Shown here piece by piece: positions 1 through 4,972 of a stretch of 51,129 nucleotides of DNA; positions within the stretch are counted from its first letter, which is position 1, and every line of letters starts with the position of its first letter. The notes beneath the pieces are model-generated. The model saw nothing but the letters and a program-made list of their open reading frames with translations. It had not been told where the DNA came from and searched no databases. The stretch comes from an uncultured Clostridia bacterium (GTDB lineage: Bacteria; Bacillota; Clostridia; Oscillospirales; Oscillospiraceae), in contig CAMAKJ010000001.1 of assembly GCA_945836055.1 (NCBI GenBank), positions 1 to 51,129 on the forward strand. The letters run 5' to 3'. The translations under genes and the position numbers were made by a program.

Positions 1-398
1 AGACCTACAAGCCCATGGAGGCCGAGGAGGCCATGAAGGAGGGCTATGTGGTGGTCTGCGTCCAGACCAAGGGCTACTGGACCCGGGGCGGGCATTACCT
101 GCTGCTGGAAAAGATGTTTGAGGACGGTCAGATTCAGGTGCGGGACTCCAACCTCTACAACTACAAACGATTGAAGAACCACCAGATTGACCGCTTTGAC
201 TTCTCCACTGTCATTCCCTCCGGCGTGGGCTACTGGATTTACGAAAAGAAAATCGTGACCATCCCTCAGTGCGCCCGCTGCGGCAGCCCGGAGACGGAAG
301 GGGCGCCTGCGTCCATGTTCCGGGAGGACTACCTGTGCGAAAAGTGCGGCGCGGCCCTGCTCCGGCGCAATACATATCTGAATTACAGCGGTGTATAA
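1..398 (+). CDS. 3' part of a C39-like (papain-fold) peptidase-domain protein with C-terminal CxxC...CxxC zinc-ribbon-like tail; runs off the window start
   Basis: Frame is open upstream of ATG 15 (acc tac aag ccc atg). GYWTRGGHYLLL...IQVRDS resembles the catalytic His/Asp strands of C39-like peptidases; CARC...CEKC at the C-terminus. Confidence 0.55.
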   Translation, partial: TYKPMEAEEAMKEGYVVVCVQTKGYWTRGGHYLLLEKMFEDGQIQVRDSNLYNYKRLKNHQIDRFDFSTVIPSGVGYWIYEKKIVTIPQCARCGSPETEGAPASMFREDYLCEKCGAALLRRNTYLNYSGV

Positions 399-404
399 CG
401 ACAA

Positions 405-444
405 AAAAGCACGCCTGACCGAAAAACGCGGTCAGGCGCGTTTT
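405..444. terminator. Bidirectional intrinsic terminator after the first CDS
   Basis: aaaagcACGCCTGACCG-aaaaacg-CGGTCAGGCGCgtttt, 7 nt after the stop at 398. Confidence 0.8.
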
Positions 445-480
445 GTCCCTCAGGACTGCGCCGCTTTGTCGGATTTGATC
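405..480. repeat. Direct repeat copy 1: terminator hairpin plus degenerate copy of the last ~10 codons of spo0A
   Basis: 66/76 identical by hand alignment to 2106-2181; minus strand reads IKSDKAAQS* versus LKSAEAAQF* in spo0A. Confidence 0.9.
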
Positions 481-523
481 CGAAATCGTCCCGCCCGGCG
501 TCTGGGAGCGAATAGAGCAGAAT

Positions 524-552
524 TTGACAAATCCAGAGACGATACGTATAAT
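524..552 (+). promoter_or_regulatory. Consensus sigma-A promoter of the membrane-protein cassette
   Basis: TTGACA(524-529)-17 nt-TATAAT(547-552); AAGGAGG precedes ATG 587. Confidence 0.85.
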
Positions 553-586
553 ACGGATGTAGCTTTTCATGAAGGAGGATTCTGCA

Positions 587-2014
587 ATGGGAGAGGTCAA
601 GAGGAAGTCCAGGCCGCGCGCATTTCTGGACTGGTTCTTATCTGACCGGCTGTTTGCCCTGCGGCTGCTGATAACACTGGCTGTCACCGGCACGGTGTTT
701 TACTGCTTCAATTATCTGACCCCCCTGGCGGCTGACGACTATTGGTACACTCGCTCCTTTGCCACCGGAGAACGGATTACCTCGGTGAAGGATATTTTTC
801 CATCCCTTTATGCCCACTATTTTCAGATGAACGGGCGGGTTGTCACTCATTTTCTGGCTCAGCTGTTTCTGATGTTCGACAAGCAGGTGTTCAACCTGAT
901 TAACACTGCGGGCTTTCTGCTTCTGGGTCTGCTGATGGGGTGGCACAGCGGTTTCTTCCGGGGGAAGAAGCGGGCAATCCGGTTCGGGCTGATTTACGCC
1001 CTGCTGTATTGGATCGTGCCGGCCTTCGCGGAGGATTTTCTATGGGTGGATGGTGCCTCCAATTATCTATACGGTATTCTGATCATTCTGATCTATCTCA
1101 TTCCCTTCCGCAGATTGTTGGAGGAGTCCCATGTCCAGAAAGCCCCTCATTTCTTTCGGAAGTGTATCCTGGCTCTGGGAAATCTTGTTTTCGGCGTTAT
1201 CGCCGGCGCTACCAATGAAAATACCGGAGCGGCTCTGATCTTCGTAACCGCTTTGATTTTGGTCATTCACAAGCTTCTGTACCACCGTGGCCTGCGCGCC
1301 TGGATGCTGACAGGCTGGGTTGGCAGCGTAGCCGGCTTCCTGTTCATGCTGCTTGCCCCCTCCAATGCCCTGAGAATCTCCGGCGTTGCCCTGACCAACG
1401 CCGCAGAGCCGGGTGGCGCGTTCTCTCTCATTCCTCACAGCCTGTTCCGCGTTCTTCAGAGTGTGGTATCCGCCCTTAGCTCCATTCTCTGCTACCATTT
1501 GCCCGTGTTTCTGCTGTTCGCGGTGGTACTGATGCTCTATTTTCGCCAGAACGAGCAGGAGCCCCGCCAGACAAAATGGCGCCGGCTTGTACCCTGCATC
1601 GTGTTTTTCACTGCGTCCGCCCTGTCCGCCGGTGCCTTTGTGGTGTCCGTCTCTTCGCCCGAGCGGGTGTGGAGCGGGTCGATCATCTTTGCGCTGATCT
1701 CCATCGGCTGCGTGGTTTCCATTCTGGAATTGGACTGCAAATTGGAGCGGCTGACAATTCAGACAATCCTGCCCGCCATTATCGTGGTATGCACACTGGC
1801 AAGCTGTGTCAACACCGCCTGGGAGCTGAACAAGGTTTATGTGCAGCACAACGACCGGATTGAACGTGCCATCGCGCGGAAGGAAGCGGGAGAAGAGAAT
1901 TTCACCATGGAGCCTATCAACAGCGTTTCCCGGTTCTGCCTCTTTGAGACGCTGGGAGACACTACCAGTGGTGACTTCCTGGCAGACTTCTATGGCGGGA
2001 AAGACTCGCAATAA
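587..2014 (+). CDS. Polytopic membrane protein, DUF6056 / GT-C (GtrII-like) putative glycosyltransferase
   Basis: Many hydrophobic segments; LTPLAADDYWY and HYFQMNGRVVTH after TM1, and W-DGASNYL and GATNEN motifs typical of DUF6056. Start moved to 587 because of SD spacing. Confidence 0.7.
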   Translation: MGEVKRKSRPRAFLDWFLSDRLFALRLLITLAVTGTVFYCFNYLTPLAADDYWYTRSFATGERITSVKDIFPSLYAHYFQMNGRVVTHFLAQLFLMFDKQVFNLINTAGFLLLGLLMGWHSGFFRGKKRAIRFGLIYALLYWIVPAFAEDFLWVDGASNYLYGILIILIYLIPFRRLLEESHVQKAPHFFRKCILALGNLVFGVIAGATNENTGAALIFVTALILVIHKLLYHRGLRAWMLTGWVGSVAGFLFMLLAPSNALRISGVALTNAAEPGGAFSLIPHSLFRVLQSVVSALSSILCYHLPVFLLFAVVLMLYFRQNEQEPRQTKWRRLVPCIVFFTASALSAGAFVVSVSSPERVWSGSIIFALISIGCVVSILELDCKLERLTIQTILPAIIVVCTLASCVNTAWELNKVYVQHNDRIERAIARKEAGEENFTMEPINSVSRFCLFETLGDTTSGDFLADFYGGKDSQ

Positions 2015-2105
2015 CACCGGGCGAACCGGTTTTATGAATGGTAACGCCGCCCTGGCTGCTCCCTCGGAAGGACGCGTCCGACGGGCAGCATAGGCGCATC
2101 ATGAC

Positions 2106-2181
2106 AAAAGCACGCCTGACCGGGAAACACGGTCAGGCGCGTTTTGTATCTCAGAACTGCGCCGCTTCGGCGGACTTGAGC
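2106..2181. repeat. Direct repeat copy 2: spo0A terminator plus functional spo0A 3' end
   Basis: Hairpin at 2106-2145 and spo0A stop at 2151-2153; matches 405-480. Confidence 0.9.
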
Positions 2182-2930
2182 TGGAGCTGCAATTTGTCCG
2201 CGATGAGGGCGATGAACTCACTATTGGTGGGCTTGCCCTTGGTGTTGGAAACGGTGTAGCCGAAGAACCTTTGCAGGGTGTCCAGGTCGCCCCGGTCCCA
2301 GGCCACCTCGATGGCATGGCGGATGGCCCGTTCCACCCGACTGGGGGTGGTGCCGAAGGTTTTCGCTACCTGGGGGTACAAGACCTTCGTGATGGCGTTG
2401 ATGACATCCATGTCGTTGACCGCGATGATGATGGCCTCCCGCAGATACTGATAGCCTTTGATGTGGGCAGGGACGCCGATTTCGTGGATGATGTTTGTCA
2501 CCATGGTCTCGATACTGGTCTTGTCCGGACGGCGCTTTTCCGGAGAACGCAGGCTCTCCCCGCCCCGGATTTCCTCCAGCCGCTCCACCAGAGCGGTCAT
2601 GTCGCAGGGCTTCAGCATCAGATACCGAACCCCCAGATTGGCCGCCGCCGTGGATACATATTCGGTCACAAAGGCCGAGGTGGCCAGGGTGACGGGACGG
2701 CGTTCCATGCCGGAAATCGCCTTGAGCACCCCAATGCCGTCCTTCTTGCTCAGCATCAGATCCAGCACCAGTACGTCAGGCTTCCGCTCAGGAATCATGG
2801 CAATGGCCTGTTCCCCATCGTTGGCCGTTCCCACTACCTGAAAACCGTCGGCGCGCTGCAGCGCGGCGCTCAGAGCGGTGCAAAAATCTTCAGCGCTGTC
2901 CGCGATGAATACGGTTGTTACATGTTCCAT
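2151..2930 (-). CDS. spo0A: Sporulation master regulator Spo0A
   Basis: N-terminal receiver domain plus hallmark [50 protein letters not shown]. Confidence 0.98.
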
Positions 2931-3205: not shown

Positions 3206-4972
3206 ATGAACGAAGTATGGAACCTTGACCCCATTTACCGGGGGTTTGACGACTCGGCATTTGCCGGGGACTTGAAAAAACTGGAAGAACTGACCGGGGC
3301 ATACGCCGCCTTTGTTTCGGAGCTGCCCGGGAAGCAGCCCCTGGAGGGACTGAAAGAAGGCATCCGGCTGGAGGAAGGGCTGACCGTGACGGCCTCCAGG
3401 CTGTTTGAGTACGCGTCCCTGCGCCAGTCGGCCAACACCCGGGACGCTGAGGCCGGGTCCCGCCTGGGACAGGTGATGCAGATTGTCAGCGCCTCCGCCG
3501 GAGCCCAGGCGGCGTGGCGGGAATGGGCGTCGAAGCTCCCCAACCTGATGGCGCTGGTGAACGGCGACGGGGAGCTGAAGGACTACGCCTTCCTGTTTGA
3601 AAACCTGCGGAAAAACAGCACCCATCTGCTGGGTAGTCTGGGGGAGGAAATCAGCGCTCGGATGTCCCTCTCCGGAAGCAATGCCTGGAGCGACCTGCAG
3701 GGGTATCTCACCAGCACCGTGCCGGTTTCCTACAACGGCGGCACCACCAACCTCTCCGCCATCCGCAATCTTGCCTACGACCCTGATCCCCGGGTGCGCA
3801 AAGCGGCCTACGAGGCGGAGCTGGCCTGCTACGACCGGATCAAGGATTCCGTGGCCTTCGCCCTGAATTCCATCAAGCTGGAAACCCTCTCCGACTGTGC
3901 CCTGCGGGGCTACCCCTCGCCCCTTGACCGGACGCTGGAGCAGTCCCACATGAAGCGGGAGACCCTCCAGGCCATGCTGGGGGCGATGGAGGAGTACATG
4001 CCAAAATTCCGGCAGTATCTCAAGGCCAAGGGCAAGGCTCTGGGCCATGAAAACGGCCTGCCCTGGTATGATCTGTTTGCCCCCATGGGCGCCTCTGCGG
4101 CCCGGTATACCGCTGAGGACGCCAAGGCGATTTTGGTGGAGCTGTTTTCCTCCTTCGATGAGGAGCTGGCGCAGATGGTGGAGCGGGCCTTTGACGAGGC
4201 CTGGATCGACTTCTACCCCCGGGACGGCAAAACCGGCGGCGCTTTCTGCGCCGGGGTGGAGTGCCTGGGACAGAGCCGGATTCTCACCAACTTTGACGGA
4301 ACCTTCGGCAGCGTTGTGACCCTGGCCCATGAGCTGGGCCACGCCTTCCACAACCAGTGCCTCCGGGAGCAGCGCCCCCTGAACCGGGACTACTCCATGC
4401 CCGTGGCGGAGACGGCCTCCACCTTCAACGAATGCGTGGTCATGGCCGCGGCCATCAGCCGGGCCAAGAGCCGGGAGGAGAAGCTGGCGCTGATCGAATC
4501 CCAGCTGCAGGACGCCACCCAGATCATCTGTGACATTGATTCCCGCTACCTCTTTGAGAGTATGGTGCTGGAGAACCGGGGGGAGCGGTTCATGGACGCG
4601 GACACCCTGTGCGGCATGATGACCAAGACCCAGGAGCTGACCTACGGCGACGGCCTTGACCCCAACTTCCGCCACCCCTATATGTGGATCTGCAAGAGCC
4701 ACTACTACGGCGCCACCTTCTACAATTTCCCCTACGCCTTCGGCGGCCTGTTCGCCCGGGGGCTGTACGCCCGCTACGAGCAGGAGGGGGCATCCTTCGT
4801 GCCAAAATACAAGCAGCTGCTGCGCACCACGCCTGTGGCCACCGCCGAGGATACCGCCCTGGTGGCGGGCATTGACCTGACCGATCGGGCCTTCTGGCGC
4901 AGCGCCCTGCAGACCATCGCGGATCAGATTGACCTGTTCTGCCAGCTTGTGAGTGAAAAGGAGGAAAGCTGA
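3206..4972 (+). CDS. pepF: M3B family oligoendopeptidase F
   Basis: WNLDPIY N-terminus, GKTGGAFC, HELGHAFH zinc motif, AETASTFNE, FYNFPYAFG. Confidence 0.92.
   Translation: MNEVWNLDPIYRGFDDSAFAGDLKKLEELTGAYAAFVSELPGKQPLEGLKEGIRLEEGLTVTASRLFEYASLRQSANTRDAEAGSRLGQVMQIVSASAGAQAAWREWASKLPNLMALVNGDGELKDYAFLFENLRKNSTHLLGSLGEEISARMSLSGSNAWSDLQGYLTSTVPVSYNGGTTNLSAIRNLAYDPDPRVRKAAYEAELACYDRIKDSVAFALNSIKLETLSDCALRGYPSPLDRTLEQSHMKRETLQAMLGAMEEYMPKFRQYLKAKGKALGHENGLPWYDLFAPMGASAARYTAEDAKAILVELFSSFDEELAQMVERAFDEAWIDFYPRDGKTGGAFCAGVECLGQSRILTNFDGTFGSVVTLAHELGHAFHNQCLREQRPLNRDYSMPVAETASTFNECVVMAAAISRAKSREEKLALIESQLQDATQIICDIDSRYLFESMVLENRGERFMDADTLCGMMTKTQELTYGDGLDPNFRHPYMWICKSHYYGATFYNFPYAFGGLFARGLYARYEQEGASFVPKYKQLLRTTPVATAEDTALVAGIDLTDRAFWRSALQTIADQIDLFCQLVSEKEES

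What the first reader, a model, noticed from the sequence alone, without database searches (positions are those of the whole stretch)
405..2181. One-gene surface-modification cassette inserted at the spo0A 3' end, flanked by a 76-bp duplication
Seen: 405-480 and 2106-2181 are 66/76 identical and each comprises the terminator plus the last ~10 codons of spo0A. Between them lies a self-contained unit: perfect TTGACA-17-TATAAT promoter, strong SD and a DUF6056/GT-C-like membrane gene. Removing one copy and the insert restores a simple convergent pair sharing one terminator. Inference: an attL/attR-like scar or moron showing spo0A's 3' end used as an integration site, with replacement of the gene tail; the repeats could also permit loop-out, giving variable surface glycosylation. 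No integrase remains.
Basis: partly seen in the sequence, partly recalled or inferred. Interest (0 to 1): 0.72.

Follow-up and report, generated by a model that had tools for sequence, protein, structure and literature searches.

The report
Glycosyltransferase cassette parked in spo0A tail
A single gene for a predicted surface-sugar transferase sits behind the sporulation master gene spo0A between two copies of that gene's last ten codons and terminator; it was likely placed and spread by the cell's own recombination, at a spot that a widespread family of phage-type integrases uses as its landing site in related gut bacteria.

Summary
The duplication is real (66/76, only two copies in the assembly). 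spo0A's 3' end is a genuine integration hotspot. A tyrosine-integrase clade lies directly behind spo0A in 64 of 79 loci, from Oscillospiraceae to Clostridium and Brevibacillus, and one phage contig carries the spo0A tail in its attP. In this genus those islands start their displaced copy 248 bp before the stop (10 genomes). The window's cassette lacks their hallmarks: no integrase, no element ends, a boundary at -28, and the host terminator in both copies. It best fits an 'insertion with long target duplication' made by host recombination; a fully decayed island is the main rival. A sister species has the same cassette at 3.6% four-fold-site divergence against 19-34% in flanking genes, so it has moved between species, likely by homologous recombination. 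The cargo has a predicted GT-C fold (Z 15.5). Loop-out switching is unsupported: longest perfect repeat 18 bp, no excision joint in 4 DNA runs. Ten literature searches found no description of spo0A as an integrase target; this scan noted it earlier in two Paenibacillus phages.

The parts
3..398 (+). 3' end of the upstream gene (PPIase plus C39-like peptidase lipoprotein; 675 aa in sister species G384); convergent on spo0A in empty-site relatives
405..445 (.). left copy of the bidirectional terminator; likely serves the upstream gene; stems identical to the right copy
446..480 (-). displaced, decaying spo0A tail (stop at 450-452 on the minus strand; about 10 codons, SDKAAQS*)
524..552 (+). sigma-70-type promoter TTGACA-17-TATAAT, 12/12
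572..578 (+). Shine-Dalgarno AAGGAGG before ATG 587
   Evidence: sequence
587..2014 (+). DUF6056 membrane protein, 475 aa, predicted GT-C glycosyltransferase fold, invariant DD after the first helix
2015..2105 (.). spacer between cargo stop and right terminator; no similarity to the island ends of relatives; last 6 nt probably part of the duplication
2106..2181 (.). right copy: bidirectional terminator shared by cargo and spo0A, plus the live spo0A tail
2151..2930 (-). spo0A, intact, 259 aa

Best explanation
A one-gene cassette for a predicted GT-C glycosyltransferase sits between two copies of the spo0A tail and terminator, and it was likely put there by host recombination that duplicated its target rather than by an integrase. 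Steps: (1) shown: the spo0A end is a hotspot in this genus, fed by integrase islands, so DNA from relatives often carries foreign genes right behind a highly conserved spo0A. (2) Inferred: incoming DNA paired through spo0A homology and joined illegitimately 28 bp before the stop (or was copied in by template switching), giving tail+terminator - cargo - tail+terminator. (3) Inferred from the mutation pattern: the duplication is kept because both convergent genes and the cargo need a terminator; the coding remnant decays. (4) Shown as a divergence pattern, inferred as mechanism: the finished block later crossed between sister species by homologous recombination in the upstream gene's end and in spo0A. 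(5) Predicted: the protein is expressed from its own strong promoter and moves a sugar from a lipid carrier onto a cell-wall polymer, changing the surface. The repeats are a fixed scar, not a switch.
For: No integrase, resolvase or element end in the insert: profiles of both island ends hit 12 loci (far end, hit at E<0.05) and 26 loci (integrase end) but not the window, G384 or G175; the non-coding parts match nothing in other loci. Genus islands start their displaced copy at -248 in 10 of 10 cases, followed on the spo0A side by element DNA, not a host terminator; the window starts at -28 with host terminators on both sides. An independent parallel case: G175 (L142), -38..+40, 97% identical copies, one lipoprotein gene, no element ends. 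Other integrase-free boundaries vary (-12, -36, -79, -92, -116, -117, -130). It meets two of the three criteria of Furuta et al. 2010 (repeat >30 bp, insert <20 kb; PMC2853133, passages). G384 shares the cassette: 98.1% DNA, four-fold-site divergence 9/251 against 10/52, 32/127 and 69/201 in the three flanking genes; the high-identity tract runs from about 370 to 2183. G000 encodes an intact ComEC. Of 33 local direct repeats in G000 only this one is a gene tail plus terminator flanking an insert. Cargo GC 55% and GC3 0.69 against 0.77-0.84 in neighbours.
Against: No donor locus was found: the closest DUF6056 relatives are 81% and 54% identical, without context; in 400 genus genomes only G384 has a close copy. 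No empty site with this exact terminator was seen. G358 (L152) shows the same end state (host tail and terminator on both sides, no integrase) and clearly derives from an island, since its HTH and resolvase genes are 74-78% identical to island cargo, so decay of an island can give this pattern. G000 is 84% complete and shows only one partial tyrosine recombinase, so a trans-acting integrase cannot be excluded. Glycosyltransferase activity, substrate and expression are untested.
Confidence: 0.55

Rival explanations
1. The cassette is the last remnant of an integrase island. The island entered at -248; later the integrase end was overwritten by the host tail and terminator (gene conversion from the displaced copy or from an island-free relative) and a deletion trimmed the displaced copy to 28 bp, grounding one useful gene.
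For: Islands decay often here: an island end follows spo0A in 37 of 400 genus genomes (one DNA query, lower bound) but an integrase match at E<=1e-60 in only 10 of 400. G358 (L152) and G004 (L049) show island cargo between host-terminator copies; in L152 a resolvase gene is cut at the displaced copy. G091's cargo lipoprotein is related to the cargo of an island (42% over 76 aa). It explains directly why only spo0A shows such a repeat in G000.
Against: No trace of either island end or of island cargo in the window; DUF6056 was found in none of the integrase loci fetched (profile search); needs at least three events; cargo GC (55%) is higher than in most other inserts measured (37-46%, with 52% in two).
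Confidence: 0.3
2. The repeats are true attL/attR sites with the crossover at -28, made by a member of the spo0A integrase clade acting in trans on a non-autonomous cassette. Crossover points do differ between lineages of this clade.
For: Among integrase-bearing loci the displaced copy starts at different codons: about -165, -146, -91, -83, -70, -54 nt relative to the KPTN motif; the high-identity tract shared with G384 ends near the repeat edge.
Against: The window boundary is +55 on that scale, outside every position seen in 21 loci; within this genus the point is fixed; G175 has -38, not -28; the left copy and the end of the upstream gene are also near-identical between the two species, which points to transfer of the whole block, not two independent integrations.
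Confidence: 0.1
3. The repeats serve as a loop-out switch: RecA recombination between them deletes the gene in part of the population and varies surface glycosylation.
For: Direct repeats flank the gene; in run X5 a more abundant related strain (depth 37-55 against 12) does not carry this left junction.
Against: Longest perfect run is 18 bp with 10 mismatches, below the roughly 25 bp recalled as the minimum for efficient RecA exchange (own knowledge). No joint skipping the cassette in 4 DNA runs. The X5 strain has a different terminator sequence and 17 differences in 220 bp of flank, so it is another haplotype, not an excision product. Deletion is irreversible.
Confidence: 0.05

Closest known systems
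Insertion with long target duplication (Furuta, Abe, Kobayashi 2010, PMC2853133, passages read; first described for H. pylori in their reference 37, not read)
   Same: Genes flanked by unique direct repeats over 30 bp, variable in length, with no other mobile element; their H. influenzae cases have 46-bp repeats overlapping a gene's 3' end; mostly in naturally competent species.
   Different: The cargo there is restriction-modification genes; here a predicted GT-C glycosyltransferase. Here the event recurs at one gene (spo0A) that is also an integrase target, and the repeat is a shared terminator plus gene tail.
Tyrosine-integrase elements that enter the 3' end of a protein gene and restore it (e14 and phage 21 at E. 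coli icd; recalled, also named in earlier notes e1-3459915 and e1-3776888)
   Same: The islands and phages of relatives do exactly this at spo0A: integrase 95-197 bp behind the stop, replacement tail, displaced copy at the far end, attP form in phage contig L137.
   Different: The window's cassette has no integrase, no element ends and a different boundary; spo0A as a target was not found in the papers searched.
[quoted passage not shown] 2017, PMC5635113, abstract and outline seen)
   Same: Variable cargo behind a core gene; transfer between relatives with crossovers in the flanking genes.
   Different: Here the seeding integrase family can be named and the scar is visible at base level.
GT-C glycosyltransferases (PMT, AftB, ALG12, ArnT) and Gtr-type surface-conversion genes or phage morons
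   Same: Predicted GT-C fold, acidic motif after the first helix, own promoter and terminator, weak match to a PHROG annotated as O-antigen conversion glycosyltransferase (E 2e-9).
   Different: Not inside a prophage; no gtrA/gtrB partner in the cassette (a GT2-GtrA fusion lies on contig C104); sequence identity to solved structures about 10%; substrate unknown. One DUF6056 protein tested in E. faecalis gave weak to negligible antiphage defence (10.1101/2025.10.07.681051, one passage).

Membership tests
spo0A-targeting tyrosine-integrase island (attL/attR) | Integrase gene directly behind the spo0A stop | tested here: not met
   No integrase in the insert; none like it in the 84% complete assembly
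spo0A-targeting tyrosine-integrase island (attL/attR) | Displaced copy begins at the lineage's crossover (-248 in this genus) | tested here: not met
   10 of 10 genus islands start at -248/-251; window and G384 start at -28
spo0A-targeting tyrosine-integrase island (attL/attR) | Conserved element-end DNA after the stop and before the displaced copy | tested here: not met
   nhmmer profiles of both ends do not hit the window or G384 at E<0.05
spo0A-targeting tyrosine-integrase island (attL/attR) | Target gene left whole, old tail displaced downstream in the same orientation | tested here: met
spo0A-targeting tyrosine-integrase island (attL/attR) | Excised circle or precise empty junction | tested here: inconclusive
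   No joint in contigs of 4 DNA runs; contigs drop rare forms
Insertion with long target duplication | Direct repeat over 30 bp, unique in the genome | tested here: met
   76 bp, two copies only
Insertion with long target duplication | Insert under 20 kb with no other mobile-element gene | tested here: met
   1625 bp, one gene
Insertion with long target duplication | Empty-site genome with a single copy of the repeat | tested here: inconclusive
   Same gene order without insert in 10 of 87 loci, but their terminators differ in sequence; none carries this exact repeat once
Insertion with long target duplication | Restriction-modification genes as cargo (criterion of the original survey) | tested here: not met
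   Cargo is DUF6056; it works like this class but is not an RM case
GT-C glycosyltransferase | GT-C multi-helix membrane fold | tested here: met
   Model pLDDT 85, pTM 0.87; best match Pmt4 Z 15.5, rmsd 4.5, 351 aligned; the first 16 rows are all GT-C enzymes; Foldseek top rows GT-C but none at E<=0.001
GT-C glycosyltransferase | Conserved acidic residues in the loop after the first membrane helix | tested here: met
   D56, D57, Y60 (481-aa numbering) invariant in 33 of 33 aligned proteins, just after helix 15-50; the motif's role is recalled knowledge
GT-C glycosyltransferase | Sugar transfer from a lipid-linked donor | not testable with these tools
   No assay
Phage moron | Own promoter and terminator | tested here: met
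Phage moron | Lies within a prophage genome | tested here: not met
   Flanked by core genes on both sides

The most novel reading that the evidence does not exclude
The end of spo0A is a landing pad across spore-forming Bacillota, run by one tyrosine-integrase clade whose crossover slides between lineages over more than 100 bp of the DNA-binding-domain sequence, so that phages and islands supply, and sometimes change, the last 40-82 residues of the sporulation master regulator; the pad then keeps collecting single surface genes without any integrase, and this cassette is one such capture that has already jumped between two pig-gut species.
Probability: 0.35. Interest if true: 0.65.

Novelty: new variant of a known kind. 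Interest (0 to 1): 0.46.

Why it matters
The cassette itself is a modest case of gene gain. Its value is what it points to: spo0A, present in nearly all spore formers and very conserved at its 3' end, is a common integration target that I could not find in print. That offers a broad-range attB for engineering Clostridia, a marker for mining cargo (defence, surface and regulatory genes) in gut Firmicutes, and a test case for how an integrase-seeded hotspot is then maintained by host recombination. It also gives DUF6056 a structural assignment (GT-C) and a compact, self-expressing unit with which to test its function.

Tried and rejected
Dispersed repeat or chance: rejected. General genome-wide tail-duplication habit: rejected, 1 of 33 local repeats in G000. 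Assembly artefact: rejected; single contigs of independent runs span both junctions with 0-7 differences (X2 1-2283, X5 338-2282, X14 1-2219). Metagenome pattern scan and DUF6056 locus scan of JGI contigs: nothing. Remnants of island ends or island cargo in the insert: none. Integrase of this clade in GenBank phages: no match at E<=1e-40; 14 unannotated records match the Spo0A tail and were not examined. RNA runs X15 and X16 gave no cover of the cassette, and the organism was not shown to be present in them, so this says nothing about expression. Foldseek gave no hit at E<=0.001. The integrase tree is the quick tree; the careful search did not finish, and 12 of 79 loci with partial integrases were left out. 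NCBIfam has no model for the cargo. Literature: searches and text look-ups in PMC6907783, PMC13626063, PMC5027557, PMC10538166, PMC12884075 (passages) and the supplements of PMC8138268 found no statement that spo0A is an integration target; subscription papers and database tables such as TIGER/Islander or ProBord site lists were not seen and may list it.

Full report
Observation. The two 76-bp copies (405-480, 2106-2181) agree at 66 positions without gaps, and a scan of all 208 contigs of the window's assembly finds no third copy at 42/76 or better; chance expectation is about 4e-15. Each copy is a hairpin with A/T tracts on both sides followed by the spo0A stop and about ten codons on the minus strand. 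The right copy is the live end of an intact spo0A (2151-2930, TIGR02875 above cut-off). The left copy reads RIKSDKAAQS* in the same frame. Seven mismatches fall in the 34-nt coding remnant, three in the hairpin loop, none in the stems: the terminator is kept, the coding remnant decays. Between the copies lie a 12/12 promoter, AAGGAGG at 572-578, and a DUF6056 gene (Pfam E 3e-92) that likely starts at 587. Single contigs from three independent pig-gut runs span the cassette with 0-7 differences, and a fourth run covers it in two pieces, so it is not a mis-assembly.

Host. Loci with the most similar Spo0A (84-91%) and integrase carry titles such as Oscillospiraceae or Faecousia sp.; the window is likely from that group. 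The assembly is 84% complete.

Empty sites and hotspot. Many other relatives carry foreign DNA there. In an even draw of 100 genus genomes, 90 loci from 88 genomes had a spo0A tail; 12 carry a shared element end right behind the stop and 5 have a second copy of the tail downstream, two of them (G004, G091) with the host terminator in both copies (17 loci had under 2 kb of downstream DNA). In 400 genomes the element end is found in 37 (one DNA query, lower bound) and an integrase match at E<=1e-60 in 10.

The integrase islands. The shared end is followed at +135 by a 340-aa tyrosine integrase (PF00589). In 10 of 10 genus islands with both ends the displaced copy starts 248-251 bp before the stop, at MDVI|NAITK, behind a conserved element end. 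A single-protein scan of GTDB and IMG/VR gave 79 loci (some overlap the genus set). In 64 the integrase lies 95-197 bp behind a spo0A end; 11 of the other 15 lie within 200 bp of a contig end; one more is adjacent; three are not adjacent. Hosts include Oscillospiraceae, Christensenellales, Clostridium, Hathewaya, Vallitalea and Brevibacillus. Twenty-one loci show a displaced copy within 11 kb. Phage contig L137 has tail and endolysin genes, then an element end, the last 40 codons of spo0A and the integrase: an attP junction. The start of the displaced copy differs between lineages (about -165, -146, -91, -83, -70, -54 nt from the KPTN motif), in part with a ttacataa motif 21-47 nt from the junction (read by eye; some starts could be deletion ends). 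Element-supplied tails differ from the displaced ones by 0-6 residues in the genus, including positions just before [12 protein letters not shown].

This cassette is not a standard product of those islands. It has no integrase; profiles of both island ends miss it; its non-coding parts match nothing in the fetched loci; DUF6056 occurs in none of the integrase loci; its boundary is -28; and the spo0A-side copy carries the host terminator where islands put their own end. The same design recurs independently in G175 (-38..+40, 97% identical copies, one lipoprotein gene). Among 33 local direct repeats in G000, only this one is a gene tail plus terminator around an insert, so the pattern is tied to spo0A and is not a genome-wide habit. 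The simplest route is pairing through the conserved spo0A end and an illegitimate join inside the recipient's tail; G000 has an intact ComEC. Against this, G358 shows host tail and terminator on both sides of what is plainly island cargo (HTH and resolvase 74-78% identical to island genes, resolvase cut at the displaced copy), so decay and overwriting of an island can reach the same end state. I give 0.55 to direct host recombination, 0.30 to a grounded island, 0.10 to a shifted att site used in trans.

Later spread. One genome of 400, G384, has the same cassette and duplication. Identity is 98.1% in the cargo and 93-99% in the non-coding parts, against 85% upstream, 84-92% in spo0A and 83% in the next shared gene; four-fold-site divergence is 9/251 against 10/52, 32/127 and 69/201. 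The high-identity tract covers about 370-2183, both repeats included, so the finished block moved by exchange in the flanking genes, as described for hotspots without mobile elements (PMC5635113, abstract). In G384 the left copy is closer to the live tail (SDEAAQF*). In run X5 a more abundant related strain, about 97% alike in parts of the flanks, continues after the upstream stop with a different version of the terminator, and run X14 carries the cassette on a recombinant flank; where the X5 contig leads is not shown.

Cargo. The model (33-sequence alignment, pLDDT 85, pTM 0.87) matches GT-C enzymes: Pmt4 Z 15.5 (rmsd 4.5, 351 aligned), Pmt1-2 15.0, AftB 15.0, ALG12 14.2, ArnT 12.9; the first 16 rows are GT-C. 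Foldseek ranks GT-C enzymes first but none at E<=0.001. D56, D57 and Y60 after the first helix are invariant in 33 of 33 proteins. A PHROG annotated as O-antigen conversion glycosyltransferase matches weakly, and G000 has a GT2-GtrA fusion that could supply a flipped lipid-linked sugar. Surface glycosylation is thus a prediction; substrate and expression are untested. The one paper found that names DUF6056 reports weak to negligible antiphage activity for an E. faecalis member (one passage).

Loop-out. The longest perfect run between the copies is 18 bp, short for RecA by recalled figures; no contig in 4 DNA runs joins across the cassette (contigs miss rare forms); loss could not be reversed. 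I reject it as a switch.

Novelty. Tail-replacing integration into protein genes, long target duplications and recombination-fed hotspots are known kinds. spo0A as a target was not found in six targeted searches and six paper look-ups (listed under Tried and rejected), but database tables were not seen, and two earlier notes of this scan report it for Paenibacillus phages. New here are the breadth of the integrase clade, the fixed crossover in this genus against shifting ones elsewhere, and integrase-free captures at the same spot. Verdict: new variant of a known kind, interest 0.46.

Noticed in passing
L137:9750-10996: Phage contig with an attP junction: element end, last 40 codons of spo0A, then the integrase; tail and endolysin genes upstream.
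   Followed up: partly
L061-L126, 21 loci: The start of the displaced spo0A copy differs between integrase lineages over more than 100 bp of the DNA-binding-domain sequence, in part with an intact element-side motif.
   Followed up: partly
L031, L032, L061, L153, L156 (last 82 codons of spo0A): Element-supplied and displaced Spo0A tails differ at residues just before the [12 protein letters not shown] helix (Q/E, T/N/A, G/Q) and in the last seven residues.
   Followed up: partly
L062/L154, L033, L064, L066: Tandem or nested insertions at spo0A leave two or three tail copies and truncated integrases.
   Followed up: partly
L153 (G273:C3:6975-7459): A 240-bp mini-island: both element ends joined with nothing between, followed by a full displaced copy.
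   Followed up: no
window 3206-4972: The M3 oligoendopeptidase gene next to the spo0A promoter is missing at this place in sister species G384, where the M18 aminopeptidase follows directly.
   Followed up: no
G000:C104:2857-3912: One 383-aa frame holds both a GT2 and a GtrA domain, a possible supplier of lipid-linked sugar.
   Followed up: no
G068:C5:1625-2418 and C86:2444-3237: Two full-length spo0A genes in one bin; duplication or contamination not resolved.
   Followed up: no
window 1-55 and G000:C151:3818-3872: Identical 55 bp, an assembly overlap; the upstream gene probably continues on C151.
   Followed up: no
window 170-398: Runs X5 and X12 hold a second haplotype about 8% different here but only about 2-3% different further out, which suggests that the flank came in with the cassette.
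   Followed up: partly
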